Under the pieces are notes generated by a model. That model was not told where the DNA came from, searched no databases, and saw nothing but the letters and a program-made list of their open reading frames with translations. Shown piece by piece: positions 1 through 34,501 of a stretch of DNA of 35,494 bases (position 1 is its first letter; every line of letters starts with the position of its first letter). The stretch is taken from the IMG/VR virus record IMGVR_UViG_2531839180_000004, positions 1 to 35,494 of that record, one strand, 5' to 3'. The translations under genes and the position numbers were made by a program. This DNA comes from a virus (Duplodnaviria > Heunggongvirae > Uroviricota > Caudoviricetes).

Positions 1-141
1 TTACTGCTTACACTGTAAGAACGCCGCAAACTCCGCTCCCCAGAAGCTCATCCGTATTTCACACAGCGAACCGTGCAACATCCAGATGATGAGGATTGCC
101 GTCACGCAGAACGTGATGGCCGTAAGCGATTTTTGCGACAT
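1..141 (-). CDS. Hok/Gef-family type I toxin (46 aa, single TM helix)
   Basis: Hand translation of the reverse complement of 1-141 gives MSQKSLTAITFCVTAILIIWMLHGSLCEIRMSFWGAEFAAFLQCKQ. It has a hydrophobic N-terminus plus LCEIR and EFAAF motifs like Hok LCE(V/L)R and E(V/L)AAF. Below the ORF-track length cutoff. Confidence 0.5.
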   Translation of the reverse strand: MSQKSLTAITFCVTAILIIWMLHGSLCEIRMSFWGAEFAAFLQCKQ

Positions 142-331: not shown

Positions 332-592
332 TTAGTTCTGAGGTAAAGGCAAACTCATCTGATTGTTTCCCCTGTGTGAAGCTGGCAGCTCATGCCACGG
401 GATACCTTCTGAAGAGTGAACGGCGGAGGCGTGTTTTGATGTGAATTTATGGAAGGCTTCCAGTGTTGAGAAGCATACGCCGCATTCCAGGTTGTTACAC
501 TGGTAATACTTTTGCCGCACGGTGTTTGAATCATTTTCCGGACGACTGGTGCGGATTCGGGCAGATGCGCCACAAAGCGGACAACGGAACAT
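332..592 (-). CDS. ogr: Ogr/Delta-type zinc-finger late-gene transcription activator
   Basis: Internal Met of ORF 332..652 gives MFRCPLCGASARIRTSR...YYQCNNLECGVCF, a C-x2-C...C-x4-C finger like P2 Ogr MFHCPLC...HQCQNVNCS. Start at 592 chosen by homology. Confidence 0.8.
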   Translation of the reverse strand: MFRCPLCGASARIRTSRPENDSNTVRQKYYQCNNLECGVCFSTLEAFHKFTSKHASAVHSSEGIPWHELPASHRGNNQMSLPLPQN

Positions 593-710: not shown

Positions 711-2147
711 ATGAGCACACATGAAATAGCTAGCACACAAGCACAAGGGCAACTCGTATCAACAGATTTCAATCGATTCGAGCAATTTTTGGAGTCGCTT
801 GGATTACCAAAAGAAAATGTTCTTGCTTCAACGATGGAGCGTCAGGTTGTCCAAACAAACTTTCCTCAGTTTGTGATGGCGTTACCAGAAGACGTTAAGC
901 GTGACTCTAGATATTTGTCCAAATTTGCAGCAGCAAGTGCTATTGGTTTGTTTGATGCTGCCTTGAATTATGTCTGGAACGAAGTTGTACTTAACTTACG
1001 AAGAAAGACAGTTATTTATGGTTTGGAACTTTTTTTTGATGCTGCCGTTGGTGGTAAACATAGAGATCTATTTAGTACTGAAAGTGACTTAAGTGGTATT
1101 AAAGATAAAGTTCTTCTTGATAATTGCGCTAAATTAGAATTGATCTCCGACTCAATTTATAAAAAACTCACCCATATTTTAATTATGCGCAATGATCTTG
1201 GTGCCAGTCATCCTAATGATGCGAAAATCAATGCTTATGAACTGATGGGGTGGTTGCAAACATGTGTTCAAGAAGTTATCAATGACACACCTTCAGAGGC
1301 TGCACTGCAAGTTAAGGCTTTTGTTGAGAATCTGCGAAATCAAACTGAAGTCATCAGTAGCTCTAGTTTGCAGCATATGAAAAATGGGCTCAAACAGCTA
1401 CACACAAGAAATTGTGATAATGTCCTTCAGACAATCTTCGGTATGTATATTGGTGCTGGTGCAAATAACATCCTTAAGAAAAATATATCTGAAATTGCTC
1501 CAACAGTTTGGGAATGTGCAGATAATAATATTAAATATAAACTAGGTGTTGCGCTTGATGGTTATCGAACCAACTTGCACAATGATAAATTTTTAGCAGG
1601 TAACGAGTTTTTCGAATTTTGCTCTGGTAATAAATTTAAAACCCTTGAGGCTAGGGTTATTCTGCTTGATGAATATCTGGATGATTTAAGTTCTGCTCAC
1701 AGCGGTTGGGATAATTTCTATAATGAAGTTCCTCATGCTAGGAAAATGTTAAGTTACATTTCCAATGAATCGGATATTCCTAATGAACGTAAAGAAAAAT
1801 TAATTCGTATAATTCTATCGTGTCGTATTGGTAATGGTGTTTCTTATAACACTGGTGTTTCTCCTTTAGGCAAACCCATATACGATTCAATATTGAATAT
1901 GCTGGGCGATGATAATATCGTTCAAGTTATCATTGCATTCTATAATCAAGAGATTTACCACTTATTATCTAACAAAAACTGTAGAAAACATGCTGTGCAA
2001 ATTCTAACGGATATAAGAACTAATGTTGTTAGTGATAAGCTCAAGCAAATCTTAGATTATCTGATTGTAAATGGTGATACTTTGGAAAAAACTATGAAAA
2101 CCACTGAATTTAAAGCTCTAGCATCAAGTCATATAAAATTTAGTTAA
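711..2147 (+). CDS. hypothetical 478-aa cargo protein, AT-rich, orphan; possible HEPN-like abortive-infection protein
   Basis: Long intact ORF with ATG at 711. Markedly AT-rich compared with the flanking phage genes. No Walker or other enzymatic motif seen except RNDLGASH (R-x6-H). Inserted between ogr and D, which are adjacent in P2. Confidence 0.8.
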   Translation: MSTHEIASTQAQGQLVSTDFNRFEQFLESLGLPKENVLASTMERQVVQTNFPQFVMALPEDVKRDSRYLSKFAAASAIGLFDAALNYVWNEVVLNLRRKTVIYGLELFFDAAVGGKHRDLFSTESDLSGIKDKVLLDNCAKLELISDSIYKKLTHILIMRNDLGASHPNDAKINAYELMGWLQTCVQEVINDTPSEAALQVKAFVENLRNQTEVISSSSLQHMKNGLKQLHTRNCDNVLQTIFGMYIGAGANNILKKNISEIAPTVWECADNNIKYKLGVALDGYRTNLHNDKFLAGNEFFEFCSGNKFKTLEARVILLDEYLDDLSSAHSGWDNFYNEVPHARKMLSYISNESDIPNERKEKLIRIILSCRIGNGVSYNTGVSPLGKPIYDSILNMLGDDNIVQVIIAFYNQEIYHLLSNKNCRKHAVQILTDIRTNVVSDKLKQILDYLIVNGDTLEKTMKTTEFKALASSHIKFS

Positions 2148-2162: not shown

Positions 2163-2194
2163 CAAAAAAGGTCACAGATTTGCTATCTGTGGCC
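2163..2194 (-). terminator. hairpin terminator downstream of D (A-run on + strand gives a U-tract on the - strand transcript)
   Basis: GGTCACAGAT-TTGCT-ATCTGTGGCC stem-loop (one G-U position) preceded on the + strand by AAAAAA. Confidence 0.4.
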
Positions 2195-2330: not shown

Positions 2331-3440
2331 TCATTCTGTTTCTGCTATCCATTCCGGGATTTTTGCCTCAAGCTCAAGCTGCGTGGTAAAGCCGCTGTTA
2401 TCAATGGTGTGCTCAGCTTTTGCAATAATCCAGTCCTGATTATCAATCTCGCTTTTAAATCCTGTTACCGTGCCATGCATTTCGGGGTAGAGTTCTGCGC
2501 GTCCGCGTGCCAGTGTGATGGAGAATGATGCGGCTCCGCGTTGTAGCTGCTGCCACTTTGCCGCCGCTGCGCGTCTTGCTGCCTGCTCGTTCTGATAAGT
2601 CTTGCGTAACACAAACACATTGCCTTCCGCGCCTTCCATATAATCACCTTCACGGCTGCTGCTTTTCTCCTTTTTGGGTTTTGGCGGTTTACGGCGTTTC
2701 ACGCTGACTTTTTTCTTTTTCCCGTAATTAAGATCAAGCCAGTAGGCGCGTACCCCCGTATACGCCTCGCGGTCAGCAATGCGGAACTGATGGCGATCGC
2801 CGCTGCTGCGTGTAATGGCGAACGAGGGTAACGGCTGACCCTGTGCGTTCACGCCACCGCCGGGCATGATGAATAACAGATTGCCGCTTTTTACCGTGGC
2901 GATTGCGCCCAGCATTTCCGCCATGCGCGTAAGGAAGGACATGTCGCTTTCTTCGGTCTGGTCGGCGTGGTCGATTTCGATATCCATCAGCATTTCGCTG
3001 ATTTGCGGTTTCAGACCATACCGATGAGCGATGGCGGATACCACACGCTCAACGGTCACATCATGCCAGGACACCTCACGTTTAACGTTAAATTCATCCC
3101 GAAAATCTGCGCTTCTGGCTGAAACAGTCAGCCTGTCCGGCGGTCCTTCGTGAGCGATTTCATCAACAATGTAAGTGCCTTTTTCTGTCAGCGGTTCTCC
3201 TTTCCAGCCAATGAGAACCGTCAGGCGCGCGCCCCGTGGCGGTAGCTGCAACTGACCATCCGCATCATCCAGCGTGATGGTGAGCTGGTCCGCCTCAAAT
3301 CCCCGGTTGTCGGTCAGTGACAGGCTCATCAGGCGCTCTGCCACACCTGACAGCGTTTTACCCTCCGCGAGAATATCAAAATCCGGCATTTTCACGGGGT
3401 CTGTGCCCTGACTGAGCAATTGCATGGTGGTGTCGGTCAT
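2331..3440 (-). CDS. D: tail protein D (late control gene D family, baseplate hub/VgrG-like)
   Basis: 369 aa from the internal Met MTDTTMQLL, preceded by a GGGAGGGA Shine-Dalgarno. Size and sequence fit the Phage_GPD family; the ORF-track start at 3572 would leave only 25 bp to FI. Confidence 0.85.
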   Translation of the reverse strand: MTDTTMQLLSQGTDPVKMPDFDILAEGKTLSGVAERLMSLSLTDNRGFEADQLTITLDDADGQLQLPPRGARLTVLIGWKGEPLTEKGTYIVDEIAHEGPPDRLTVSARSADFRDEFNVKREVSWHDVTVERVVSAIAHRYGLKPQISEMLMDIEIDHADQTEESDMSFLTRMAEMLGAIATVKSGNLLFIMPGGGVNAQGQPLPSFAITRSSGDRHQFRIADREAYTGVRAYWLDLNYGKKKKVSVKRRKPPKPKKEKSSSREGDYMEGAEGNVFVLRKTYQNEQAARRAAAAKWQQLQRGAASFSITLARGRAELYPEMHGTVTGFKSEIDNQDWIIAKAEHTIDNSGFTTQLELEAKIPEWIAETE

Positions 3441-3496
3441 CTGCTCCCTCCCTGTGCGGCATGGTCGCATGTGCGTGCGGAGGGGGTTACTGCTTT

Positions 3497-3520
3497 TTGT
3501 TGTCGCCTGGTCGGGAGAAC
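3497..3520. promoter_or_regulatory. candidate late-promoter activator site (TTGTTGT-N12-AGAAC) in the D/FI divergent region
   Basis: Motif centred about 55-60 bp upstream of the expected FI transcript start. A near-identical motif occurs between O and P at 20405-20429. Confidence 0.3.
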
Positions 3521-3597
3521 GGCGCAGGGGTGAGATTACGCGCGTGGTGGGTGATGATTGTTGCCGAATCATTTAACGGATACAAGGGGCTGAAGCT

Positions 3598-4782
3598 ATG
3601 AGTGAAACTCGTTTTCATGGTGCCCGTGTTACGGAAAGTACCGACCTGGTAACAGCGATTAATGATGTTGATTCCAGTGTTATCGGTATCGTGGCAACGG
3701 CGGATGATGCGGATGCGGAGCTGTTCCCGCTGAACAAGCCCACACTGCTGACCCGCGTCAATGACGTGCTGGGAAAATGCGGAACAACGGGGACGCTTTA
3801 TCGTGCGCTTAAGGCCATCGCAGACCAGGTGAGCACAAAGGTGATCGTCGTTCGCGTGGCTGAACACAAAGAAGAAGACGGAAAAACGCAGGATCAACTG
3901 GTTATCGGTGGTTCTGAATCTGACGGCAGCTATACGGGGATGTATGCGCTGCTTGTTGCAGAGCAGGATGAAAGCATCGGATACCGTCCGCGTATTCTGG
4001 CCGCGCCGGAGCTGGACACGGAGGCGGTAACAAAATCCCTGTGCGTGATTGCGGGTAAACTGCGCGCGTTTGTCTATGCCTCATGTCACGGCTGTAACAC
4101 GATGGCTGAGGCGATTACCTACCGCCAGAAATTCAACGAACGTGAGGTGATGCTCTTATGGCCGGACTTCATCGCCTACAACCCGAAAAGTGGCAAAAAC
4201 GAAACGTTCCCCGCGCCTGCCTATGCGTGCGGCCTTCGTGCGTACATTGACCATGAGCAGGGCTGGCACAAATCGCTGTCCAACGTTCCGGTTAAAAATG
4301 TGCTGGGGATGTCCAGGCATGTGTTCTGGTCGTTGCAGGCCGAAGACAGTGATGCCAACAGCCTCAACAACAAAGAAATCACGACCATTATTCGTCGCAA
4401 CGGGTTCCGCTTCTGGGGCAACCGCACACCGGAAACGAACGCCTACATCTTTGAGGTGTATACCCGAACCGCACAGGTGCTGGCTGATTCAATTGCGGAA
4501 GCGCAGTTTGAAACCATCGACAGTCCACTGACGCCTGCGAACGTGAAAGATGTTATCAGTGCCATCAGGGCAAAACTGGATTCACTGGTTACTGCCGGGA
4601 AACTGATTGGGGCGTCGTGCTGGTATGACGTGGTGGATAACGGCACCACGAATTTACGTCAGGGGCGCGTGCGTATTCGCTACAAATATACGCCTGTTCC
4701 CCCGCTGGAAGACATGGAGCTTTACCAGTCGTTTACTGATGAATTCTTTGGTCCCGCATTTGCGGTGCTGGGAGGTGCCTGA
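3598..4782 (+). CDS. FI: tail sheath protein FI
   Basis: 394 aa; FPLNKP, RPRILA, WPDF, GWHK and RRNGFRFWGNRT blocks align with P2 FI. Confidence 0.95.
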   Translation: MSETRFHGARVTESTDLVTAINDVDSSVIGIVATADDADAELFPLNKPTLLTRVNDVLGKCGTTGTLYRALKAIADQVSTKVIVVRVAEHKEEDGKTQDQLVIGGSESDGSYTGMYALLVAEQDESIGYRPRILAAPELDTEAVTKSLCVIAGKLRAFVYASCHGCNTMAEAITYRQKFNEREVMLLWPDFIAYNPKSGKNETFPAPAYACGLRAYIDHEQGWHKSLSNVPVKNVLGMSRHVFWSLQAEDSDANSLNNKEITTIIRRNGFRFWGNRTPETNAYIFEVYTRTAQVLADSIAEAQFETIDSPLTPANVKDVISAIRAKLDSLVTAGKLIGASCWYDVVDNGTTNLRQGRVRIRYKYTPVPPLEDMELYQSFTDEFFGPAFAVLGGA

Positions 4783-5294
4783 TGGCTGTACCAAAACATC
4801 TTCGCTTTTTTACGCTGTTTGTGGATGGTGAAAACGAAGTGGGTAAGGTGACGTCCGTCACTCTGCCTAAGCTGACGCGCAAAACCGACAGCTACCGGGG
4901 TGGTGGCATGATGGGTGCGGTAAGTATTGATCTCGGTCTGGACGACTCCGCGCTTGATGCGAGCTTTGTCATGGGGGGCGCAGTTCGTGAGCTGTTCCTT
5001 AAGTATGGCGGCACGATTGACGGCACGCTGCTGCGTTTTGCGGGTGAATACTACACCGATGCAGAAAGCGACCTGTATGAAGTCGAAATGCGCGGACGTG
5101 TGACGGAAATTGATATGGGGGAAGCCAAACAGGGCGAAGCCACATCACACACTTACGCCATTAAAAACACCTACTACAAGCTGAGTGTTAACGATCGCCC
5201 GTTGTGGGAGATTGACCTGCTGAACTTCATTTACCGGAAGGACGGCAAGGACATTGTGCCCGATCGCATCCGTTCCGCGCTCGGGCTTGGCTGA
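4782..5294 (+). CDS. FII: tail tube protein FII
   Basis: 170 aa; VTLPKLTRKTDSYRGGGM closely matches P2 FII. The start overlaps the FI stop. Confidence 0.95.
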   Translation: MAVPKHLRFFTLFVDGENEVGKVTSVTLPKLTRKTDSYRGGGMMGAVSIDLGLDDSALDASFVMGGAVRELFLKYGGTIDGTLLRFAGEYYTDAESDLYEVEMRGRVTEIDMGEAKQGEATSHTYAIKNTYYKLSVNDRPLWEIDLLNFIYRKDGKDIVPDRIRSALGLG

Positions 5295-5348
5295 TAAGTA
5301 ATATGCAGGCGGCGCAGTGCGTCGCCTCTGACTGAAAGGAGTTTCCTG

Positions 5349-5714
5349 ATGAAAGAGACGAAAAACATCGATACCGAAAACACGGTAGTTACTGACACTG
5401 TGAAAGAAACCAGTGAGCGTGGCGTAAAACTTACCCAACCAATTGAGCGAGGCGGCGAAAAAATCACGTATGTGGAGATCACCGGGGCTATTGAGCAGGC
5501 TGGATCTCTGCGAGATTTGTCGCTGTCTGATGTGCTGAATCTGAAAGCGGAATCCATGTTTACGCTGCTGTCACGCGTGACATCACCGCGACTGGATGAA
5601 GTGACAATCAAAAAAATGGCATCCCGTGACTTTATTCAGTTATGTGCGGTTGCCGTAAATTTTTTGAGCGGTGCGGACTCTGGCGGGAAGAACGAACAGG
5701 CGACGGAAGCCTGA
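5349..5714 (+). CDS. E: tail assembly chaperone E
   Basis: 121 aa; C-terminal part aligns with P2 E and ends ...AVAVNFLS just after the slippery site. Confidence 0.85.
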   Translation: MKETKNIDTENTVVTDTVKETSERGVKLTQPIERGGEKITYVEITGAIEQAGSLRDLSLSDVLNLKAESMFTLLSRVTSPRLDEVTIKKMASRDFIQLCAVAVNFLSGADSGGKNEQATEA

Positions 5715-5878
5715 TCACGGTTGTGTGCTTTGAGCACATAGAAGACTTTGTGGCGGATATTGCCGCCATTTTTAACTGGTCGCCCGCCGAAATCTTCATG
5801 ATGACGCCCGGCGAAGTGGTTAGCTGGCGTGAGCGGGCGGCACTTCGCAGCGGGAATGCAGACAATGAAGACTCTTGA
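5349..5878 (+). CDS. E': E+E' tail chaperone fusion made by programmed -1 ribosomal frameshift (slip site near 5658-5667)
   Basis: AAATTTTTTG slippery run near the 3' end of E. The -1 frame continues as FFERCGLW...FNWSPAEIFMMTPGEVVSW, typical of E'. ORF-track frame 5642..5878 is -1 relative to E. Confidence 0.7.
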
Positions 5879-8672
5879 TATCCGGGTCGCTTTCAGCGCC
5901 GTTGACAGGCTGACCCGGCCTGCCGAAAACGCCCGCCGCCTGATGGGGCAGTTTGGTGACTCCATCCAGCGAACGCAGGGGGCGATCAAAAATCTCGAGC
6001 GTCAGGCGCGATCATTTGAGCGCGCCCGCGACGCTGTCAGTAAAGCGGATGCGGGTATCGTGAAAGCACGACGCCAGCTTAACGCCCTTAATCAGTTACA
6101 ACGCACGGGTACAGTGCTCAGCGAAAAACAACAAAAGCTGATGCAGCAGTTAAGCAACCGGCTTGAACGCCTGAATGAATCGCGCACACGGGAAATTCAG
6201 AAAATGCGGGAGCTTGGCGGAGAACTGAAACGCCACGGCATTTCCCTGACAGGCAGCGATAGCACCATCCAGCAGGCCATCAGACGCACCGAACAGTACA
6301 ACAACCAGCTTGAACGCGAACGGCAGGCGCTTGCGCGTGTAACACGTGCGCGTGAGCGGTATTCGCGCGCGCAGGAAACCGCGGGAAAACTGAAAACAGG
6401 TGGTGCGCTGGCAATTGGTGCGGCAGCGGCTGGCAGCTATGCTGCCGGGCGTTTTTTGCAGCCTGCGATCGGGTTCGGGAAAGAGATGTCCCGCGTTCAG
6501 GCACTGACGCGAATCGACCAGAACAGCCCGCAGTTTAAGGCGCTGCGTGAACAGGCGTTAAAACTTGGCTCTGAAACGCAGTTCACTGCAGGCGAGGCCG
6601 CCAGTGGGCAGGCATTTCTTGCAATGGCTGGCTTCACACCGCAGGCCATTCAGGCTGCGCTTCCCGGCGTGCTGAGCATGGCAACGGCTGGCGGTATGGA
6701 TCTCGGCGAGACGGCGGATATTGGCTCAAATATCCTGACGCAGTTCGGCCTTTCTGCTGACCAGATGGACCGGGTCGGTGACACACTCACCGCAGCGTTT
6801 ACTCGTACCAACACTGACCTTCGCGCACTGGGCGAAACCATGAAATATGCAGGTCCGGTGGCGGGTAAGCTGGGAATATCGCTGGAGCAGGCCGCAGCGA
6901 TGGCGGGCGTGCTGGCGAATATGGGTATCAGGGGGAGTGATGCTGGTACGGCAATGCGTGCCAGCCTGGCTCGTCTGGCATCACCGCCAAAGGCGGCAGC
7001 AGAGGCGCTGAAAGAGCTTGGCGTGTCTGTCTCGGATGCTGGGGGCAAAATGCGCCCGATGGAGGATGTGCTGGCTGACCTTTATAAAGCTACCCGCAAA
7101 TACGGGGAAGTTGACCGGGTATCGTTCTTTAAGGACATTGCCGGAGAAGAGGCTTTCACATCATTTATGGCCCTCGTTGATGCGGCAGGTGACGGCTCCT
7201 TACCCAAACTGAGAAAAGAACTTGAAGGCGCGCGCGGTGAGGCTGAACGCACGGCAAAGGTTATGGCCAACAACCTTGACGGCGATCTGAAATCACTCAG
7301 CAGTGCATGGGAAGGGTTGCGCATCCGCATTGCAGATCTGATTGACGGTCCGCTGCGTTCTGTCACGCAGTGGCTCACGCGTGTGGTATCAAAGGTGACG
7401 GCGCTGGCGCAGGCCCATCCCGCACTGACGCGCCAGCTACTGATTGCAGGCGGTGCACTGCTGGCAATGACTGCAACGGTTGGCTCGTTGTCGCTGGCTA
7501 TTGGTGTGCTTGCTGGCCCGCTGGCAAAACTGCGTCTTGGTTTTTCCCTCCTGACCGGATCAATGAATGCTGTCAGGGTTCTGCCAGCACTATGGGGAAT
7601 GGTGACGGGTTCCGTTTCTTTACTGGGAGGCGCTATCGGGGCGTTGTTCAGTCCGGTTGGTCTTATCGTGGCTGCGCTTGCCGGAGCTGCCGTTCTTATC
7701 TGGAAATACTGGGATCCCATCAGGGCATTTTTTGCCGGGGTGTTCAGCGGGATTATGGAAAGGCTGACCCCGTTGCGCGAAACCTTTGAACGGTTTGGTC
7801 CTGTTTTTGACGCAATCGGGAGTGGGATCAGCCAGGTGTTTAACTGGTTTAAATCGCTGCTGTCACCGATGGAGTCCAGCAAGGAAACTCTGGATAAATG
7901 TACCAGTGCTGGCGAGATATTCGGTAACGTTCTTGGCGGTGCGTTACAACTTGTTCTGACACCTGCAAAAATGTTGCTGGATACGCTGGCGTGGATACTT
8001 GAAAAGCTTGGTGTGCTTCCGGATGAAGCGGAAAGGGCGCGCAAGAAAATCGAAGACGCACAGCGTGCGGCCATTCTTCAGGACAAGGTTGCCTTGCTTC
8101 AGGGGGACCTGGCGAAAATCAATCCGCCGAAGCCTGTGGAAAATGGCAATGGCACCGGAGGTGATAACCCCAAAGACAATAAACCGCTCACAGATAGCAA
8201 TACCGGTACGCTGCGCAGACTCAGCAAAATTGCTGATAACACAGGTAAGCTGGTTGAGGAGACGAAAAAACGCATTGGCCCCGGCGATATTGTCTTTAAA
8301 AACCTGCCCCGAGCACTTGCTGTTCGTGGGGAGTGGCAGGAGCGGAAGATTGCGCAGGTCAGTAAGCCTGCCCCCGCAATTAATATCACACCCGTGGTCC
8401 CGGCTCCGCTGCCTCCGGCGCTGGTCCCTGTTGTTGCGGCCAGCTCCCGCCCGGTGGCGGAGGCTATACGATCGCCAGTGGCATCAGTTCCTGTAACTTC
8501 CCGTAACCGCGAGCCTGTTGCCTCCGGATTTGGTGGTGAAATTCATGTTCATCTGCATAACGTTGTTACGCAGAATCCCCGCGAACTGGCGAAACTGGTC
8601 GGTGAAATGGTCAGGGCAGAAATGGAACGGCGCGCCCGTGCCGGGCGTGGCAGTTTTTACGATAAAGATTGA
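5865..8672 (+). CDS. T: tail tape measure protein T
   Basis: Long Ala/Gly-rich protein with coiled-coil N-terminus and hydrophobic central segments, in the T position after E'. Start at MKTLDIRV chosen for its weak GGGAA Shine-Dalgarno (ORF track starts at 5829). Confidence 0.9.
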   Translation: MKTLDIRVAFSAVDRLTRPAENARRLMGQFGDSIQRTQGAIKNLERQARSFERARDAVSKADAGIVKARRQLNALNQLQRTGTVLSEKQQKLMQQLSNRLERLNESRTREIQKMRELGGELKRHGISLTGSDSTIQQAIRRTEQYNNQLERERQALARVTRARERYSRAQETAGKLKTGGALAIGAAAAGSYAAGRFLQPAIGFGKEMSRVQALTRIDQNSPQFKALREQALKLGSETQFTAGEAASGQAFLAMAGFTPQAIQAALPGVLSMATAGGMDLGETADIGSNILTQFGLSADQMDRVGDTLTAAFTRTNTDLRALGETMKYAGPVAGKLGISLEQAAAMAGVLANMGIRGSDAGTAMRASLARLASPPKAAAEALKELGVSVSDAGGKMRPMEDVLADLYKATRKYGEVDRVSFFKDIAGEEAFTSFMALVDAAGDGSLPKLRKELEGARGEAERTAKVMANNLDGDLKSLSSAWEGLRIRIADLIDGPLRSVTQWLTRVVSKVTALAQAHPALTRQLLIAGGALLAMTATVGSLSLAIGVLAGPLAKLRLGFSLLTGSMNAVRVLPALWGMVTGSVSLLGGAIGALFSPVGLIVAALAGAAVLIWKYWDPIRAFFAGVFSGIMERLTPLRETFERFGPVFDAIGSGISQVFNWFKSLLSPMESSKETLDKCTSAGEIFGNVLGGALQLVLTPAKMLLDTLAWILEKLGVLPDEAERARKKIEDAQRAAILQDKVALLQGDLAKINPPKPVENGNGTGGDNPKDNKPLTDSNTGTLRRLSKIADNTGKLVEETKKRIGPGDIVFKNLPRALAVRGEWQERKIAQVSKPAPAINITPVVPAPLPPALVPVVAASSRPVAEAIRSPVASVPVTSRNREPVASGFGGEIHVHLHNVVTQNPRELAKLVGEMVRAEMERRARAGRGSFYDKD

Positions 8673-8678
8673 GGAGTC

Positions 8679-9173
8679 ATGGCCATGATGATGATCTACG
8701 GCATGTTTGTTTTTGAGCTGCGCACGCTGCCGCATCAGCAGTTACAGCAAAACAAAAGCTGGCGGCATGTGAAAAATGAACGCGTTAACCGTTCAGCAAG
8801 CTGGCAGTATATCGGTGCAGGTGATGATCGCATCGTTCTTTCTGGTGTGCTTTATCCTGAAATTACAGGTGGCGAAGTGTCGCTGTCGCTGCTGACCACG
8901 CAGGCGTATACAGGACGACCCTGGCCTTTGATTGATGGCGTCGGGCAGATTTACGGTATGTATGTCCTGACCGGAACGAATACGACCCGTTCCGAGTTTG
9001 ATCGCTACGGTAAGGCGAAAAAGATAGAATTTTCACTGACCCTTGAACGCTGTGATGAGGATTTGCGGGAGCGCCTGCAATCCTCATCGTTCAGCGATAT
9101 GCTGTCCGGCTTCAAAGATAAGGTGACATCATCCCTTAACAGCGCGGCCAGTTCAGTAAAAGGGTTGTTCTGA
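8679..9173 (+). CDS. U: tail protein U
   Basis: MMMIYGMFVFELRTLPHQQLQQNKSWRH and PEITGGE...YTGRPWPLIDG align with P2 U. Confidence 0.9.
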   Translation: MAMMMIYGMFVFELRTLPHQQLQQNKSWRHVKNERVNRSASWQYIGAGDDRIVLSGVLYPEITGGEVSLSLLTTQAYTGRPWPLIDGVGQIYGMYVLTGTNTTRSEFDRYGKAKKIEFSLTLERCDEDLRERLQSSSFSDMLSGFKDKVTSSLNSAASSVKGLF

Positions 9174-9180
9174 TTTAACA

Positions 9181-9220
9181 CAAAAACCGCTAATGGTCAG
9201 ATTAGCGGTTTTCTTTTTCC
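9181..9220. terminator. bidirectional intrinsic terminator between U and the invertase remnant
   Basis: AACCGCTAAT-GGTCAG-ATTAGCGGTT perfect stem flanked by an A-run upstream and TTTCTTTTT downstream. Confidence 0.55.
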
Positions 9221-9396
9221 TTAGTCTTCTCAATTGTTTCTTCAGTCTGTATATCGCCTACAGGGTGATAACGATAAATCGTCGATATACTGATACCGTA
9301 AATTATTGCCAGTTGTTTTCTGTCATGACCGTTTTTAATAAGCCTTGCTATTTGAATGTTCACCCAAGGAATGCCTCCCTTAAGAAAGGGGGGCAA
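9202..9396 (-). pseudogene. remnant of a Gin/Hin/Cin/Pin-family DNA invertase (C-terminal HTH only)
   Basis: 64-aa ORF ...LIKNGHDRKQLAIIYGISISTIYRYHP resembles the C-terminal DNA-binding helix-turn-helix of serine invertases; the N-terminal catalytic domain is absent. Confidence 0.65.
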
Positions 9397-9409
9397 CCTT
9401 ACCTACAAA

Positions 9410-12007
9410 TCAGTATTTATAATAACGTCCAGGCAGCACAGGAGAGTTAACATTCCAGAACCCCTGCGGATCGCATGCCAGTATCATCCAGGCTGTATTA
9501 CAGGAGGACGGCCACGGTGGCATATCATCATTATCGGGGTAGTCACACGAATCAATATAACCGTAGCGTGTGCGCAGTGGTGCCAGCCTCGCCAGAATAT
9601 CCATCGCGGTGGTATCATCTCCCAGTCTGCGGGCCAGCAATGCCACGCCTGCACTGCCCTCCACCCAGACTCCACGCTGTTTATTCGGGTAGCCATATTC
9701 CGGATGATAAGGCGTGTACCCTGTCGCATCGTGCGTGGCGTACCAGAGTCTGCCCAGGTAAGTAAAACACCGCCGGGCTTTTTCCATATCTATATTGGCC
9801 ACAAACAGCCCTCCCCAGCTCGCGCAGTCCAGCGGTGAGGCCTTGTCCACCCCGGTAGTCCGCATCCCGGCATAAAATCGTCCTTCGTCCTCCACCCACA
9901 GTTTTTCCATAATGGCATCCGCCAGGGCTTTCGCTTTTTCAGCATAGCCGGTGAAGCCCAACCGTCCCATCAGATCAAACAAAAACCACAGGTCGAACTG
10001 ATGTTCTGACGTGCACCAGTCTGCGTCAAAATCCGGATAAAACACACCATTCAGATACTGTCCGCTACCGGATGTATACAAACCAGAGCGAACATCACTG
10101 CCATCTGTGACCCTGAACATTTCAATCCATTCTGCGCACTGCATCAGTTTATCCCGGGCAACAACGGCCATTTCACCGTCCGGATATTTCAGCAGATAAT
10201 ACGCCAGCGCATACGCCACCCACGCTGCGTTTCCCGTCCGGTAATACTGCGATGATGTTTGTGCTGACATACGGTTCACAAAAAAAGGCACGCTTCCCTC
10301 ACTGCCTCCGCTGCCCACAATCGCACACAACCCGCGAACAAAACGCTCAACCTGACTGTGCCCCTGCGCCATCAGGGCAATGGCCGACACAGCCTGGTCG
10401 TAAGTGTACGTACGGTCTTTCATCACCCTTACCGTTTCGTCTCCGGCATCCGATGGCACCCGGTAAGAGCGGATACACAGCGGGTCTTCCCAGACAGTTA
10501 CCAGACCGTTATTTGATGTACGATACAGTTTAAAAGACTTGGCCCCCGGCCAGCTTCTGGCGAAACTGAACGTGCCGTCACTCTCTAATACTACAGAGGA
10601 AAACTGATATTCCAGAGTTGTGCTGGCACACAGCGCAATGGTGTAGCTCTGCGGATCACCGATACTGCACTGACCTGTGACCGGACCGGTATAGTCCGTT
10701 GTCAGCTCTTCATTTACCGTCAGCGTAACGGATTTGTTGTACACATCAGGGGCATTCAGCGATAAAAGTTCCGCTGTGCAGGTTTCCGCCAGTGTGTAAA
10801 AATTTTCCACCCGGCTGTTGCGTTCGCAGGTTGTGATCTGCGAGTGAAATTTATCAATTATTTCCGTTAATCGAAGGTAATCTAGAACATCCTCAGCACT
10901 GGTCTTACTAATAATTTCACGTCCAACACTTGTTAATGCAGTTAATGCGGCACGATTTGCCCCTGTAAAATAAGGGAGTTTATCTGCTGATGTAGCAAGC
11001 TCCGCCAGCGCCGTCAGGGTGGCATCCTTCGGTTGCTTACCCGCAAGCGCGTCAATCACGGTGGTTGCAAAATTAGGGTCATTGCCCAGCGCCGCAGCCA
11101 GTTCGTTCAGCGTGTTCAGTGCATCAGGTGACGAATCTACAAGTGCGGCAATCGCGGCCATAACGAAAGCTGTGCTTGCGATCTGGGCATTATTAGTCCC
11201 CTGTGGCGCTGTTGGTGTTGTTGGCGTTCCGGTCAGTGCCGGGCTGTTTAATGGTGCTTTCTTGTTCGTTTCATCCATTACCACCTTGACAGCTTTTGGT
11301 GTCGCTGCCAGCGTTTCAGACGTGCTGTTCGTGGCGCTACTGAGCTGAACAATCCCTTTTTGTGTAGTGGTGGCGTTCTGGGCGGTATATTTCCCGTTAG
11401 CCAGGTCATATGCAGCCTTAACCGCTTTCGGTGTTGCGGCCAGTGTTTCTGATTCACTGTTAATTGCACTGCTTAACTGAGTAAAACCTTTTACGGTCAG
11501 CGAGGCGTCCGGGTGACGTCGTGACTGTTCGTGCTCTGATATTTTATCATCCACATATTTGCGGGTTGCCAGAACCACAGACGGGTCGATTTTCAGCGTG
11601 ATGGCTTCAGTGTTCGTGACAACCAGAATCATTCGGATAGTCTGGGTGCGTCCACTGCCTTCCTGCAACTGCGGTTTGTACGTTTCCGGGCAGTTTGCCA
11701 CCGCAATGAGTACACCTTCATCATCATAAAGACCAATCTCACGGATCCAGAATCCTCCCTCGTTTTCAGGGATGATTTGCTCCGCAATAATCTGGCTCTG
11801 ATTGTTAGGGTCAACACTCAGAAGATTCAGCGGTGCAATGCGTTTCTGGTTAATCAGTTTTGTTTGTGCAGGGTCTGGTGTTGGTAACACACCATTTGCA
11901 TCACCAACGGCCATTTGCGTCAGATTCAGCTTACTGCCGAGCATCGTCGCGTTAGCCAGTCGTGCCGCGCCCTGATTAGTCAGAATGGCGTAGTATTTCA
12001 CTGTCAT
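9410..12007 (-). CDS. H: tail fibre protein H with P2-like N-terminus, two fibre repeats and a divergent C-terminal domain of about 435 aa
   Basis: N-terminus MTVKYYAILTNQGAARLANA is P2 H-like, followed by two SETLAATPKAVK repeats. The C-terminal half is aromatic/Asp-rich and cysteine-containing, unlike P2 H. No G (fibre assembly) gene follows. Confidence 0.9.
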   Translation of the reverse strand: MTVKYYAILTNQGAARLANATMLGSKLNLTQMAVGDANGVLPTPDPAQTKLINQKRIAPLNLLSVDPNNQSQIIAEQIIPENEGGFWIREIGLYDDEGVLIAVANCPETYKPQLQEGSGRTQTIRMILVVTNTEAITLKIDPSVVLATRKYVDDKISEHEQSRRHPDASLTVKGFTQLSSAINSESETLAATPKAVKAAYDLANGKYTAQNATTTQKGIVQLSSATNSTSETLAATPKAVKVVMDETNKKAPLNSPALTGTPTTPTAPQGTNNAQIASTAFVMAAIAALVDSSPDALNTLNELAAALGNDPNFATTVIDALAGKQPKDATLTALAELATSADKLPYFTGANRAALTALTSVGREIISKTSAEDVLDYLRLTEIIDKFHSQITTCERNSRVENFYTLAETCTAELLSLNAPDVYNKSVTLTVNEELTTDYTGPVTGQCSIGDPQSYTIALCASTTLEYQFSSVVLESDGTFSFARSWPGAKSFKLYRTSNNGLVTVWEDPLCIRSYRVPSDAGDETVRVMKDRTYTYDQAVSAIALMAQGHSQVERFVRGLCAIVGSGGSEGSVPFFVNRMSAQTSSQYYRTGNAAWVAYALAYYLLKYPDGEMAVVARDKLMQCAEWIEMFRVTDGSDVRSGLYTSGSGQYLNGVFYPDFDADWCTSEHQFDLWFLFDLMGRLGFTGYAEKAKALADAIMEKLWVEDEGRFYAGMRTTGVDKASPLDCASWGGLFVANIDMEKARRCFTYLGRLWYATHDATGYTPYHPEYGYPNKQRGVWVEGSAGVALLARRLGDDTTAMDILARLAPLRTRYGYIDSCDYPDNDDMPPWPSSCNTAWMILACDPQGFWNVNSPVLPGRYYKY

Positions 12008-19499: not shown

Positions 19500-20336
19500 T
19501 CAGAAGTCAGCCAGTTGATCGGAGGCTGCGCCCGTTGCGGTGAACCGGTTTTGCGGATCGCCGTCCTGCGTGCGCAGTTTTTCCTTCAGTGCTGTCAGCT
19601 CTGTGGTCAGTGACGTGATTTTCTGGCGGTCCTGCTGATGGCGGGTTTCCAGCACATTAAAACGGTCGATAATGTCGGCCTGTGACGTTGCGACGCCTTC
19701 CACCGCTTCCTGAATACGGGAGAAACTGGCGTCATCCGCTTTGCGGCCACGACCAATAATCCCCATTACGCGGTTAAACCACTGGGTGCCTTCTTCCTGG
19801 CTTTGTTCTGCCATTTCGATGATTTCAGACTCGATGGCTTTGGAAATGAGCGGTGCTTCACCCTGGACACTGTTGAACGTCATCACCGCCTGACGTTGCT
19901 GTGCCGTGAATTTCAGGCGCTCAGTGCCCAGGCTTGCCGGGGTGTCGGTCATCGCCAGCCCGACCAGATAGGCGCGCCCGTTAACGGAGAACTGCGGGTG
20001 CAGTTCGATACTGGAATAGATTTTCTTGCCGTCCGCGACAAGCTGCTTCATGCGCTCGGTCGGTTCGATTTCTGCATACAGCGCAGTACGTCCGGCCAGC
20101 GGACCTTCCGTAATGTCTTCCGTACTCAGTGCGGTGACATCGCCCATTGCGGAAAATTCGCTTGACGGGCATGGCGAGAGATAGTGCTCAACGTTCACGC
20201 GGGCAGCGTAAACATCCGGGTTGAAGTTCTCGGCGGCTTCACGCAGATGTACCGGGCTGATTTCGCGGCCATCAACAGTTGATCCGGAGACAGCCACGCG
20301 AAACTTTTTGCGGGATGTCTTTTTTTCATTAGCCAT
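19500..20336 (-). CDS. O: capsid scaffolding protein O
   Basis: From the internal Met MANEKK; FRVAVSGSTVDGREISPVHLREAAENFNP aligns with P2 O. Confidence 0.9.
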   Translation of the reverse strand: MANEKKTSRKKFRVAVSGSTVDGREISPVHLREAAENFNPDVYAARVNVEHYLSPCPSSEFSAMGDVTALSTEDITEGPLAGRTALYAEIEPTERMKQLVADGKKIYSSIELHPQFSVNGRAYLVGLAMTDTPASLGTERLKFTAQQRQAVMTFNSVQGEAPLISKAIESEIIEMAEQSQEEGTQWFNRVMGIIGRGRKADDASFSRIQEAVEGVATSQADIIDRFNVLETRHQQDRQKITSLTTELTALKEKLRTQDGDPQNRFTATGAASDQLADF

Positions 20337-20404
20337 AGTTTTTGCCCCTCTGACTGGTTCTTCAGTCATGATGGCAAAGCGTAACAGGCTGATACAAAGG
20401 GCTT

Positions 20405-20429
20405 TTGTTGTAAGAAAACGGCCAGAACA
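20405..20429. promoter_or_regulatory. candidate late-promoter activator site (TTGTTGT-N12-AGAACA) in the divergent O/P region
   Basis: Same motif as at 3497-3520, located in the divergent O/P intergenic region. Confidence 0.3.
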
Positions 20430-23825: not shown

Positions 23826-25025
23826 ATGGCTTTTACAAAAATCAGAATCGATAATCTGTTTTGCTTTGAAAATAGCATCCTTGACTTAAGCTTCTCCAGA
23901 CCCCCGATCAACAGCTCACTGGAAGGTGAGTACATTGATGGATTTGAAAAGTTCTACTTCAAAAAGGTTTGCATCGTTTCTGGTGCTAATGCATCTGGTA
24001 AAACATCTCTTGGTCGCGTGATGCTTTCTGTGTTGCGTTTTCTCAGTAGTGGTGTTTTCAATCCAGAACCGTTAAAAATTACTGACAAAAGAAAACCTGC
24101 ATATATAGAGGTTGACTTTTTCCAGAGTCATTTAAAATGTTTGTTTAGGGCAGGTGTCTGGCTTAGGGCTATGGATGAGTCTGTTGTTGTAGAAAAAATT
24201 GCAATGGCATCTGTTGATTTAAGAAGCTCGGAATCATGCGCAAAGACGACCAAAAGATTGGATGCTGTGTGGGATGCGCAAAAGTTTGAATTAAATGGTC
24301 AAAATAGATTTTTTTCAACCGAAAACGCTAACTCAAAAGAATTTTCCCAATATTTAGAGGATTTGGACTTTGTTCTTGGTTGGCATTTCATTCTATCTGA
24401 AAACCAAGAGAACACGGATAAAATATCACGAATTAAGAAGAATGTGCTTAATAGCATATTAAAAACCTTTGACAATACTGTTAAATCTGTCTCAGGACTC
24501 ACTCTTAAAGATGATGAGGGAAAGGAGGATTTGCAGGGTTATTCAGTAGTCTTCAATAATGGAGATAGAGTTATTATTGATATGGAAGGTGATATAACAA
24601 ATAAAGATAGACTGTCTCGTGGTACTTATGAGGCAGTAAAAATATCCCATCTCCTGTCAGGAGTGCTTGAAGATAAAATAGAAGAGCGAGAGTTCAATTT
24701 CCCTTGCAGTGGGGTGTACTTTTTGGATGAGAAAATGGCCTTCACTCATACTGAATTAGAAAAAATGATGGTCACGCTGATTATATCTAAGCTTTGCAGA
24801 TATGGTCAATTTATATACACCACACATAATTATGATATCTTGAGCTTAGATCTGCCTACGCATTCATATACTTTTACTAAAAAAGTAGATGGTGTAACCA
24901 CTTTTGTTGAAGCTACCACACATCATAAAAAGAATGATCGCAATCTTTTAAATAAAGTAAAAAATGACTGTTTTGCAACAATACCTGACGTTTCATTAAT
25001 CGAAGAGATGCTATTTGAGGATTGA
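23826..25025 (+). CDS. ABC-type/AAA_21-like ATPase (cargo, candidate defence ATPase)
   Basis: Walker A GANASGKTS, Walker B VYFLDE, H-loop-like TTHN. AT-rich. AAGGTGG Shine-Dalgarno before the ATG. Confidence 0.85.
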   Translation: MAFTKIRIDNLFCFENSILDLSFSRPPINSSLEGEYIDGFEKFYFKKVCIVSGANASGKTSLGRVMLSVLRFLSSGVFNPEPLKITDKRKPAYIEVDFFQSHLKCLFRAGVWLRAMDESVVVEKIAMASVDLRSSESCAKTTKRLDAVWDAQKFELNGQNRFFSTENANSKEFSQYLEDLDFVLGWHFILSENQENTDKISRIKKNVLNSILKTFDNTVKSVSGLTLKDDEGKEDLQGYSVVFNNGDRVIIDMEGDITNKDRLSRGTYEAVKISHLLSGVLEDKIEEREFNFPCSGVYFLDEKMAFTHTELEKMMVTLIISKLCRYGQFIYTTHNYDILSLDLPTHSYTFTKKVDGVTTFVEATTHHKKNDRNLLNKVKNDCFATIPDVSLIEEMLFED

Positions 25026-25027
25026 TT

Positions 25028-25564
25028 ATGGCAGTTAAGAAATTTGCTATTATTCTTGTTGAGGGAGATACGGAAAAAGCATTGTTTCAGGATTTCAAAA
25101 CATTGCTAGGCTATCCTATTAAGAAAATAGTAATTGCTAATTTATGGAATGTTAATATAAATAAATACATGCCAGCATTAACCGAAAATAGCGAAATCAT
25201 AGTGGTTTTTGATACGGATAGGATTGAGAATCTTGATAGATTTAAGAATAATCTCAATCTATTAAAGGCGAAAAAACACACAATCCACCTATTTCAACAA
25301 ACAAGCAATTTTGAGGATGAGCTTGCCAATGCTTGTGGTGTAAGTAATAGAAAGTTGTATTCTTGTTTTTGCCCAAAGATCATTTCTGCAGATAACTTCA
25401 AGAATGAATTCATTGCGCTGCGCAACAGGATGATGAAATTAGATGGACTTGGACTAAATAAAACGTTGCTTTGGAGTAGAGGGATTATCCCCCAATTGAG
25501 AGATTATAATTTTCATGTTTCCTCTCATGATGATTATTTTTATAAAAATAATAGTCCTCATTAA
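25028..25564 (+). CDS. Toprim-like small protein (RloB/DUF4276-like) coupled to the ATPase
   Basis: N-terminal FAIILVEGDTE and VVFDTD acidic motifs match the Toprim/OLD-type pattern. ATG 2 bp after the ATPase stop with a GAGGA Shine-Dalgarno. AT-rich. Confidence 0.7.
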   Translation: MAVKKFAIILVEGDTEKALFQDFKTLLGYPIKKIVIANLWNVNINKYMPALTENSEIIVVFDTDRIENLDRFKNNLNLLKAKKHTIHLFQQTSNFEDELANACGVSNRKLYSCFCPKIISADNFKNEFIALRNRMMKLDGLGLNKTLLWSRGIIPQLRDYNFHVSSHDDYFYKNNSPH

Positions 25565-30525: not shown

Positions 30526-30700
30526 GGGGTGGCCTCTTTGGTTGTAAGTTTTGAAAACTCACCATCCAGAGCTGCGAAACTGTGGGTGGCGAGACGTACG
30601 AGGTTCGCAGTACCGGCAACCAAAGAACCCGGCCCGACCGAAGTCGGCCCCGTACGCCCCACCATAATTCGTGTGCGAAAAAGACGTGGCAATACAGTAC

Positions 30701-34452: not shown

Positions 34453-34501
34453 TCATGGAGCGCTGGGGGCATGGTGGTCTTGTAACGCTGGGGTTTCACG
34501 A

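What the first reader, a model, noticed from the sequence alone, without database searches (positions are those of the whole stretch)
3441..9409. FI-FII-E-T-U tail block is inverted relative to the canonical P2 gene order
Seen in sequence: FI, FII, E/E', T and U are on the + strand, while every other late gene from O to H, plus D and ogr, is on the - strand. Established: in P2 the order is ...H-G-(Z/fun)-FI-FII-E-T-U-D-ogr, with FI through D co-oriented in one operon. Here D is divergent from FI across only about 157 bp, and the other junction (9174-9409) carries a bidirectional terminator and an invertase remnant where G and Z/fun should be. Inference: a roughly 5.7-kb inversion, or an assembly artefact, that separates D from the FI operon and requires D to have its own promoter.
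Basis: partly seen in the sequence, partly recalled or inferred. Interest (0 to 1): 0.62.

Follow-up and report, generated by a model that had tools for sequence, protein, structure and literature searches.

The report
Normal tail-gene order of P88-like phages
The tail-gene block that looks flipped compared with the textbook phage P2 is the normal, inherited gene order of a large, common group of P2-related phages of enteric bacteria, so it is ordinary and not an error or a recent rearrangement.

Summary
FI-FII-E/E'-T-U (3598-9173) lie on the + strand. D, ogr and the genes O to H lie on the - strand. D and FI diverge across 157 bp. U and H converge on a two-way terminator and a remnant of an invertase gene.

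The interpretation as a local inversion or a misassembly is wrong. The window is a P88-like prophage (about 76% identity x coverage to phage P88). The same order occurs in isolated phages of six genera and in Serratia phage KSP20. The D/FI junction is in 1358 of 5426 complete E. coli genomes. In a one-genome-per-species survey, all 39 loci with FI at least 55% identical have this order, and all 40 classifiable loci at 51% or less have the P2 order. The inverted group is monophyletic in an FI tree (30/30 bootstraps).

D does need its own promoter. The D/FI gap holds one P2-type activator dyad (TGT-N12-AGA, 3501-3518). It has -10-like hexamers on both sides at the offsets of P2's mapped late promoters, and these are conserved across the clade. 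This mirrors P2's pO/pP pair, which shares one activator site. The promoter pair is inferred, not shown. Specific to this window, a tailspike-type H end replaces the invertase and the tail-fibre cassettes. Interest is low.

The parts
332..592 (-). ogr (late-gene activator, Ogr/Delta zinc finger), co-oriented with D as in P2
   Evidence: Pfam PF04606 E = 8e-14. An 86-aa product is annotated in the near-identical STEC388 prophage.
711..2147 (+). Low-GC cargo gene (478 aa, function unknown) inserted between ogr and D
   Evidence: GC 34.5%. phrog_27609, unknown function. Relatives have other genes or nothing at this position.
2173..2191 (-). Terminator-like hairpin plus T-run downstream of D
   Evidence: Terminator scan and fold.
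2331..3440 (-). Gene D (tail/baseplate hub protein), transcribed away from FI
   Evidence: phrog_52 E = 1e-167, Pfam Phage_GPD. 49% identical to P2 gpD, which also fixes the start at the ATG at 3440.
3441..3597 (.). 157-bp divergent D/FI control region
   Evidence: Read directly from the sequence. Aligned with six other phage genomes.
3501..3518 (.). Single putative Ogr-binding dyad TGT-N12-AGA (centre 3509.5). The O/P gap at 20409-20426 has the same flanks, TTTTGTTGT...AGAAC.
   Evidence: The dyad is present in 33 of 37 clade loci. The P2 record annotates one activator site shared by pO and pP.
3461..3466 (-). Predicted -10 hexamer of the D promoter (GACCAT). The predicted transcription start is about 3452-3454, giving a 14-nt leader that contains GGGAGGGAG.
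   Evidence: It sits at offset 52-57 from the dyad, as in P2 pO, pP and pF. An xAxxAT hexamer is conserved at this offset in 31 of 34 clade loci and in 0 of 6 P2-order controls.
3553..3558 (+). Predicted -10 hexamer of the FI promoter (GATGAT). The predicted transcription start is about 3565-3567.
   Evidence: 33 of 34 clade loci.
3598..4782 (+). FI, tail sheath
   Evidence: phrog_23 E = 2e-125.
4782..5294 (+). FII, tail tube
   Evidence: phrog_55. Annotated as major tail tube protein in STEC388.
5349..5878 (+). E and E' (tail assembly chaperones). E ends at 5714. The slippery site TTTTTTG is at 5660-5666. The -1 frame product E' ends at 5878.
   Evidence: phrog_103. Sequence read. GpE family CDS in relatives.
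5865..8672 (+). T, tape measure protein
   Evidence: phrog_28 E = 8e-216. The start follows the P88 and STEC388 annotation.
8679..9173 (+). U, tail protein; last gene of the reversed block
   Evidence: phrog_76 E = 8e-75.
9183..9212 (.). Two-way intrinsic terminator between the converging FI-U and V-H transcription units
   Evidence: Conserved in P88 and 500465-2.
9202..9354 (-). Remnant of a serine DNA invertase gene (C-terminal HTH only)
   Evidence: Pfam HTH_7. Alignment to intact invertase genes ends abruptly at 9354. Annotated as a pseudogene in STEC388.
9410..12007 (-). H, tail fibre. The N-terminus is P2-H-like. The C-terminal module (9450-10836) is shared with a tail fibre/spike gene of an unrelated prophage. 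No G gene follows.
   Evidence: Pfam Phage_tail_fib and phrog_7032. 95% identity to E. coli C012 locus L090.

Best explanation
The window is a P88-like prophage (Peduoviridae, genus-level relative of Xuanwuvirus P88) with the normal gene order of its lineage.

Origin of the order. One ancient inversion of the FI-FII-E/E'-T-U block, together with its late promoter, became fixed in the common ancestor of a clade of P2-like phages of Enterobacterales. Every member now reads ...V-W-J-I-H(-G) -> <- U-T-E-FII-FI | D -> ogr ->.

How D is expressed (inferred). The inversion placed the F-operon activator site next to D. That one symmetric Ogr-binding dyad (TGT-N12-AGA, 3501-3518) now serves two back-to-back late promoters, each starting about 55 bp from the dyad centre: PF rightward for FI-U, and a D promoter leftward. 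This is the same design as the single activator site shared by pO and pP in P2. D is then a short unit of its own, ended in this window by a hairpin at 2173-2191.

The U/H junction. FI-U and V-H transcription converge on a two-way terminator. This junction is a variable cargo site in the lineage. It usually holds a Hin/Gin-type invertase with flip-flop tail-fibre cassettes. In this window those were replaced by a tailspike-type H C-terminus that has no separate assembly gene, leaving only the last 51 codons of the invertase.

What is shown and what is inferred. Shown: the orientations, the conservation, the monophyly, the motif positions, the remnant and the terminator hairpin. Inferred: Ogr binding, the transcription start sites, and the direction of the ancient change.
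For: Identity of the prophage:
- 97% nucleotide identity to P88 over window 2331-9354.
- About 0.76 identity x coverage to the whole P88 genome.

Same order in isolated phages:
- P88, 500465-2, PhiR44_2, SEN4, phiT5282H, 3LV2017, ST16-OXA48phi5.4 and KSP20. Several are proven viable phages (PMC5285337, PMC6456863, PMC9826266).

Frequency:
- The D/FI junction is in 1358 of 5426 complete E. coli genomes.
- 78 of 78 IMG/VR relatives that contain both genes are divergent.

Survey of one genome per species:
- 39 of 39 loci with FI 55-99% identical have the inverted order. They come from about 20 genera, from Salmonella to Xenorhabdus and Providencia.
- 40 of 40 classifiable loci with FI 51% or less have the P2 order.
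- The inverted set is monophyletic with a long stem in an FI neighbour-joining tree, 30/30 bootstraps.

Promoter:
- P2's record annotates one activator site (3057-3087) for the divergent pO and pP promoters, with starts 55.5 bp to either side.
- The window's D/FI and O/P gaps each hold one dyad with identical flanks.
- Measured from the dyad, -10-like hexamers lie at offset 52-57 on both sides, the same offset as in P2 pO, pP and pF.
- Across the clade, A2 is present in 31/33 and 31/32 hexamers, and T6 in 31/33 and 29/32 (FI side and D side respectively).
- The D-side hexamer is present in 31 of 34 inverted loci and 0 of 6 P2-order controls.
- The TGT-N12-ACA consensus and a shared PP'/PO' site are described in PMC3931495.

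Terminator and remnant.
Against: - No transcription data were available, so Ogr binding and both start sites are predictions.
- The right half of the window's dyad is AGA, not the consensus ACA. An exact TGT-N12-ACA search finds nothing at any late promoter in the window.
- The combined motif pattern alone is expected about 1.7 times per shuffled window. Its weight comes from its position and its conservation.
- Four to six clade loci (Symbiopectobacterium, Providencia) lack a recognisable dyad.
- The P2-order control set is small (6 loci).
- The predicted D leader is short (about 14 nt).
- Midpoint rooting of the FI tree places the inverted and P2-order groups as sisters. The direction of the change therefore rests on the wider host range of the P2 order and on the same order in other contractile-tail clusters, which is recalled knowledge and was not tested here.
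Confidence: 0.85

Rival explanations
1. A recent inversion of about 5.7 kb occurred in this particular prophage.
For: The block is reversed relative to P2.
Against: Identical junctions are present in 1358 complete E. coli genomes, in 78 of 78 IMG/VR relatives, and in phages of six genera down to 55% FI identity. No inverted repeats link the two junctions.
Confidence: 0.01
2. The order is an assembly artefact.
For: None beyond the departure from P2.
Against: Both junctions are reproduced at 100% identity in independent complete genomes (STEC388, B1172). The D/FI junction is also present in over a thousand other complete genomes and in isolated phage genomes.
Confidence: 0.01
3. FI-U is a programmed invertible segment flipped by the neighbouring serine invertase, and this window shows one of two states.
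For: An invertase gene lies next to U in many relatives, and a remnant lies here.
Against: - Only one orientation is seen in every genome examined.
- No inverted crossover-like repeats flank the block.
- In P88 the invertase's repeats flank the tail-fibre cassettes, not FI-U.
- Clade members with no invertase (SEN4, phiT5282H, PhiR44_2) have the same order.
- The window's invertase is truncated to its HTH domain.
Confidence: 0.01
4. The clade-level order is real, but D is not driven by the shared dyad. It would instead use an independent promoter, either constitutive or lying inside the FI coding region on the antisense strand.
For: The dyad is imperfect (AGA). The predicted leader is short. 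There are no expression data. A few clade loci lack the dyad.
Against: The D-side -10 hexamer and the GC-rich CGCGCG block upstream of it are conserved at a fixed distance from the dyad across genera, while the surrounding sequence diverges. The generic sigma-70 scan finds no promoter-like site in 3441-3597.
Confidence: 0.2
5. The divergent D/FI order is the ancestral one, and the P2 order is derived.
For: Midpoint rooting of the FI tree makes the two groups sisters, so the tree does not give a direction.
Against: The P2 order is found in Burkholderiales, Pseudomonas, Acinetobacter and Enterobacterales. The inverted order is confined to Enterobacterales. From recalled knowledge, R-type pyocin clusters and phiCTX also have FI..U-D co-oriented.
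Confidence: 0.12

Closest known systems
Escherichia phage P88 (Xuanwuvirus P88, NC_026014) and relatives 500465-2 (Gemsvirus), P884B11, Citrobacter phage Shae_phiSM and PhiR44_2
   Same: The gene order is identical: ogr<-D | FI-FII-E-E'-T-U -> <- (invertase) H.... There is 95-97% nucleotide identity over D to U. The 157-bp D/FI gap, the dyad and the terminator after U are the same.
   Different: The window lacks the intact invertase, the invertible tail-fibre cassettes and the G gene. It has a different H C-terminus and different cargo genes between ogr and D and between Q and A.
Bacteriophage P2 (Peduovirus P2, NC_001895)
   Same: The set of late genes is the same, and every other block has the same order. 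It has the Ogr activator, a TGT-N12-ACA-type site about 55 bp upstream of late starts, and the E/E' frameshift site.
   Different: In P2, FI-U-D is one operon co-oriented with V-G. Here FI-U is reversed and D stands alone. FI is only 46% identical and D 48% identical. Nucleotide similarity covers about 9% of the window.
P2 pO/pP divergent late promoters sharing one activator-binding site
   Same: One dyad lies in a short gap between divergent late genes, with starts (predicted here) about 55 bp to each side and -10 hexamers at offset 52-57 from the dyad.
   Different: The pair here is D/FI rather than O/P. It exists only in the inverted clade. It is predicted from sequence, not mapped.
Hin/Gin/Cin/Pin tail-fibre inversion systems
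   Same: Relatives carry a serine invertase next to inverted tail-fibre and assembly cassettes at the U/H junction. The window keeps the HTH end of such a gene.
   Different: In the window the system is destroyed. It has nothing to do with the orientation of FI-U.

Membership tests
P88-like Peduoviridae (Xuanwuvirus/Gemsvirus level) | High nucleotide similarity across the genome (from memory, the ICTV genus guideline is about 70% identity over the full length) | tested here: met
   One-directional identity x coverage of the window against P88 is 0.76, and against PhiR44_2 is 0.70. The window is cut within int, so this is not a full reciprocal value.
P88-like Peduoviridae (Xuanwuvirus/Gemsvirus level) | Gene order ogr<-D | FI..U -> <- H..R | tested here: met
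P2-like phages (Peduoviridae) | P2-type late gene set (Q, P, O, N, M, L, X, lysis genes, R, S, V, W, J, I, H, FI, FII, E, T, U, D), the Ogr/Delta activator and the GPA replication protein | tested here: met
   PHROG and Pfam hits for ogr, D, FI, FII, E, T, U, H, A and int. The remaining genes follow from synteny with the annotated P88 and STEC388 prophage.
Canonical P2 F operon (FI-FII-E-E'-T-U-D as one transcript) | D directly downstream of U and co-oriented with it | tested here: not met
   D is on the opposite strand, 5' of FI.
Ogr-dependent P2-type late promoter | Dyad TGT-N12-ACA centred about 55 bp upstream of the start | tested here: inconclusive
   TGT-N12-AGA at 3501-3518 has one mismatch to the consensus. 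Canonical ACA is present at the same place in SEN4, 3LV2017 and KSP20. The start sites are not mapped.
Ogr-dependent P2-type late promoter | -10 element at the P2 spacing from the dyad | tested here: met
   GATGAT (FI side) and GACCAT (D side) lie at offset 52-57, as in P2 pO, pP and pF. Conserved in 33/34 and 31/34 clade loci.
Ogr-dependent P2-type late promoter | Transcription that depends on Ogr and on the RNA polymerase alpha subunit | not testable with these tools
   Needs start-site mapping or reporter assays.
Serine-invertase (Hin/Gin) invertible segment | Intact catalytic recombinase | tested here: not met
   Only 51 C-terminal codons (HTH_7) remain at 9202-9354.
Serine-invertase (Hin/Gin) invertible segment | Inverted crossover sites flanking the segment, and both orientations found in nature | tested here: not met
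   No inverted repeat links 3441-3597 with 9174-9409. A single orientation is seen in all relatives.
Intrinsic two-way terminator | GC-containing hairpin flanked by an A-run and a T-run, so that both strands end in U-tracts | tested here: met
   The 12-bp stem at 9183-9212 folds at -15.7 and -15.4 kcal/mol on the two strands (z about -3.9 and -4.0), with U-tracts after the stem on both.

The most novel reading that the evidence does not exclude
After an ancient inversion, the F-operon activator site was co-opted as a second two-way late promoter, D<->FI, copying the pO/pP design. This inversion is a clean shared derived marker for a large Enterobacterales-restricted clade of Peduoviridae. The head-on U/H junction it created became the lineage's hotspot for invertase and tail-fibre cassettes and other cargo. 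None of the papers found in the searchable library mention the inverted order or a D promoter.
Probability: 0.6. Interest if true: 0.3.

Novelty: already known. Interest (0 to 1): 0.15.

Why it matters
The main value is negative: this gene order should not be flagged as a misassembly or as a fresh rearrangement when annotating E. coli and other enteric genomes. About one complete E. coli genome in four carries it.

There are two modest positive points.
- The FI-U orientation is a simple, reliable marker that separates the P88/SEN4/KSP20-type clade from P2/186-type phages.
- The D/FI gap offers a second natural example of one Ogr-type activator site feeding two divergent late promoters. This can be tested with a simple reporter construct. 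It also shows how a gene stranded by an inversion could regain regulated expression.

Tried and rejected
- Exact TGT-N12-ACA search of the window. It gave three hits, none at a late promoter and fewer than chance. The late sites here have AGA as the right half and were found only when one mismatch was allowed.
- Inverted-repeat search across 3300-9500. Only short chance-level pairs appeared, and none joined the two junctions. Site-specific or repeat-mediated recent inversion was rejected.
- Generic sigma-70 promoter scan. It gave no more hits than shuffles and none in the D/FI gap, as expected for activator-dependent promoters.
- PDB sequence search with the H C-terminal half. No match, so the fold of the receptor-binding module was not pursued.
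- PADLOC search for the 478-aa cargo gene. Only an insignificant hit.
- Literature. The papers on P88, PhiSM, SEN4/5 and the Serratia PP4/KSP20 prophage do not mention the reversed block. No paper describing a D promoter was found. One search failed because a term was too short.
- Midpoint rooting did not give the direction of the change.
- The single-protein search of viral contigs returned only relatives 98-100% identical. It was useful for frequency but not for breadth, which came from the alignment-based scan of species genomes.
Full report
**1. What is in the window**

The ORF list with PHROG and Pfam assignments shows a P2-like prophage that runs from a hok/gef gene (1-141, - strand) to a cut integrase gene (34352-35494, + strand). 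The genes are:
- ogr 332-592 (-)
- a low-GC cargo gene 711-2147 (+)
- D 2331-3440 (-)
- FI 3598-4782, FII 4782-5294, E 5349-5714 (with E' to 5878), T 5865-8672 and U 8679-9173, all (+)
- H 9410-12007 (-), then I, J, W, V, S, R, the lysis genes, X, L, M, N and O, all (-)
- P and Q (+), a two-gene cargo, A (-) and the early genes

D begins at the ATG at 3440. P2 gpD aligns from residue 63 of the longer ORF.

The annotated P2 record confirms the canonical order and a single F operon that includes D. In detail: relative to P2, exactly FI to U is reversed and everything else is syntenic.

**2. The second junction**

A 12-bp hairpin lies at 9183-9212. It has an A-run before it and a T-run after it, and it folds equally well on both strands (-15.7 and -15.4 kcal/mol, z about -4). 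It is a two-way terminator.

Overlapping it, 9202-9354 (-) encodes only the C-terminal helix-turn-helix of a serine invertase (HTH_7, E = 2.4e-9). This stretch aligns with the 3' ends of the intact invertase genes of P88 and 500465-2, and the similarity stops abruptly at 9354.

No G gene and no Z/fun gene are present.

The C-terminal part of H (9450-10836) is 95% identical to the last gene of an unrelated, siphovirus-like prophage beside potB in E. coli C012. There, too, no assembly gene follows it. The missing G gene is best explained by a swap to a tailspike-type module that does not use a separate chaperone. This point is an inference.

**3. The order is not peculiar to this sequence**

- Megablast finds 95-97% identity from D to U in P88, P884B11, 500465-2, 520873, 503458, PhiR44_2, Chuche and Citrobacter phage Shae_phiSM.
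- The annotations of P88, 500465-2 and PhiR44_2 show the same order: D (-) | FI..U (+) | [invertase] H (-).
- The window is about 76% (identity x coverage) similar to P88, which is genus level.
- The 851 bp spanning the D/FI junction occur at 80% coverage or more in 1358 of 5426 complete E. coli genomes.
- The U-terminator-invertase end occurs in about 1370 genomes. The window's own U-remnant-H junction occurs in eight genomes, two of them at 100% identity (STEC388 and B1172).
- Among 80 IMG/VR contigs with near-identical FI, all 78 that contain both genes have them divergent, 76 of them with a 156-157-bp gap.

These results exclude misassembly and a private inversion.

**4. How deep the order goes**

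tblastn against phage genomes shows D and FI adjacent and divergent in five more phages:

| Phage | Genus | FI identity to window |
|---|---|---|
| Enterobacter phiT5282H | Novemvirus | 75% |
| Klebsiella ST16-OXA48phi5.4 | Reipivirus | 71% |
| Klebsiella 3LV2017 | Reginaelenavirus | 68% |
| Serratia KSP20 | not assigned | 68% |
| Salmonella SEN4/SEN5 | Senquatrovirus | 55% |

ENT90 (FI 50%) and P2 (46%) have the canonical order.

I then scanned one genome per bacterial species with an FI alignment and classified 80 loci by tblastn.
- All 39 loci with FI 55-99% identical have ogr (-) D (-) | FI..U (+) | J (-). They come from Salmonella, Citrobacter, Enterobacter, Kosakonia, Klebsiella, Raoultella, Trabulsiella, Yokenella, Mixta, Pantoea, Erwinia tracheiphila, Brenneria, Pectobacterium, Symbiopectobacterium, Chania, Dryocola, Providencia, Morganella, Photorhabdus and Xenorhabdus.
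- All 40 classifiable loci with FI 51% or less have the P2 order. They include Burkholderiales, Pseudomonas-group and Acinetobacter hosts.
- In a neighbour-joining tree of FI the inverted set is monophyletic on a long stem (0.23) in 30 of 30 bootstraps.

The arrangement is therefore a shared derived character of a large clade restricted to Enterobacterales.

The direction of change is inferred as P2 order first, inversion second. The inference rests on the much wider host range of the P2 order and, from recalled knowledge, on the same order in phiCTX and R-type pyocin clusters. Midpoint rooting alone does not settle it.

**5. How D is expressed**

The P2 record annotates a single activator-binding site (3057-3087) for the divergent pO and pP promoters, with starts at 3016 and 3127. 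Each start is 55.5 bp from the centre of TGT-N12-CCA. PMC3931495 summarises the TGT-N12-ACA consensus and also lists PP' and PO' of Smp131 as one site read on both strands.

In the window, the D/FI gap contains one such dyad, TTTTTGTTGT-N12-AGAAC (3501-3518). The O/P gap contains another with the same flanks (20409-20426).

When the sequences are lined up from the dyad, -10-like hexamers sit at offset 52-57 on all four sides. This is the offset of the -10 regions of P2 pO, pP and pF, whose mapped starts are at offset 64-66. The hexamers are:
- FI: GATGAT
- D: GACCAT
- P: TAATCT
- O: TGCCAT, one base closer

The predicted starts are about 3565-3567 (+) for FI and about 3452-3454 (-) for D. The D leader would be 14 nt and contains GGGAGGGAG.

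The same layout holds in P88, SEN4, phiT5282H, 3LV2017, ST16-OXA48phi5.4 and KSP20, although the rest of the gap has diverged. Three of these have the canonical ACA half-site.

Across the species survey a dyad is found in 33 of 37 gaps. At the predicted -10 positions, A2 is present in 31/33 (FI side) and 31/32 (D side), A5 in 32/33 and 25/32, and T6 in 31/33 and 29/32.

As a control, the hexamer on the side facing away from FI is present in 31 of 34 inverted loci but in 0 of 6 P2-order loci where a dyad could be located.

The combined motif hits only the FI, D and P sites in the whole window, but it is expected about 1.7 times by chance. The argument therefore rests on position and conservation.

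The likely solution is two-way use of the PF activator site. This is inferred from sequence, not demonstrated.

A hairpin with a T-run at 2173-2191 (-) probably ends the D transcript in front of the converging cargo gene. In relatives without cargo, ogr follows D directly.

**6. Alternatives considered**

- A switchable, invertase-driven flip of FI-U is rejected for five reasons. No inverted repeats link the junctions. P88's large inverted repeats flank the tail-fibre cassettes only. Only one orientation is ever seen. Clade members without any invertase have the same order. The window's invertase is a stub.
- An independent D promoter, not using the dyad, cannot be excluded without expression data.

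**7. The U/H junction as a variable site**

Among 65 IMG/VR relatives that reach the end of U, 32 continue into an intact invertase. About 27 diverge within a few bases of the U stop codon. Different relatives carry different contents at this junction:
- an invertase plus flip-flop cassettes (P88, 500465-2)
- H-G only (PhiR44_2, SEN4)
- extra cargo such as a DUF262 gene (ST16-OXA48phi5.4)

The window's version, with the invertase stub, is rare: 8 genomes.

**8. Verdict**

This is the ordinary, already deposited gene order of P88-like and related Peduoviridae, present in about a quarter of complete E. coli genomes. The one point of modest interest is the inferred two-way D/FI late promoter. No paper mentioning it was found in the searchable library.

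Noticed in passing
window 23826-25564 (+): A two-gene low-GC cargo between Q and A, at the position of old/tin in P2. It consists of a 399-aa AAA_15 ATPase (PADLOC AbiLi, E = 1e-27) and a 180-aa OLD-type TOPRIM protein (AbiLii/GajA-like). It is probably an AbiL-type anti-phage system.
   Followed up: partly
window 711-2147 (+): A 478-aa ORF with 34.5% GC, inserted between ogr and D and converging on D. It matches phrog_27609 (unknown function) but has no Pfam hit and no significant PADLOC hit. Relatives carry a DUF2971 gene, another hypothetical gene, or nothing at this spot, so the D/ogr gap is a cargo hotspot.
   Followed up: partly
window 9410-12007 (-): The tail fibre H is a mosaic. The N-terminus is P2-H-like. 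The C-terminal 460 or so residues are 95% identical at the DNA level to the terminal tail fibre/spike gene of an unrelated prophage beside potB in E. coli C012. No assembly (G/Tfa) gene follows it in either place. There was no PDB match by sequence.
   Followed up: partly
window 30582-30779 (-): Rfam hits above the gathering score for C4 antisense RNA (30582-30669, 82.8 bits) and isrK (30705-30779, 65.9 bits) in the early region.
   Followed up: no
window 1-141 (-) and 142-330: A hok/gef family toxin gene sits at the very start of the window, beyond ogr. P88 and STEC388 annotate the same gene. The neighbouring antisense/leader region was not examined.
   Followed up: no
window 20336-20369 (-): The longest O ORF starts at 20369. 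The P2 gpO alignment and a GAGGGG ribosome-binding site point to the ATG at 20336 as the true start. That start also fits the shared O/P dyad spacing.
   Followed up: yes
window 3441-3572 (-); P88 gp50 and similar 'hypothetical protein' calls in many RefSeq genomes: Many annotations place a small hypothetical CDS in the D/FI gap, or extend D to 413 aa. The gap is not conserved as coding sequence in other genera and holds the promoter elements, so these calls are probably spurious.
   Followed up: partly
L114 and L117 (Providencia), D/FI gap: These clade members lack TGT-N12-ACA and instead have a GTTCTC...GAGAAC palindrome in the same gap. Their late activator may have a changed specificity.
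   Followed up: no
IMG/VR loci among L004-L083 (2 loci); L101 and L134: A few relatives have a D/FI spacing of about 0.8-1.6 kb instead of 157 bp. This probably reflects insertion sequences in the control region or in D.
   Followed up: no
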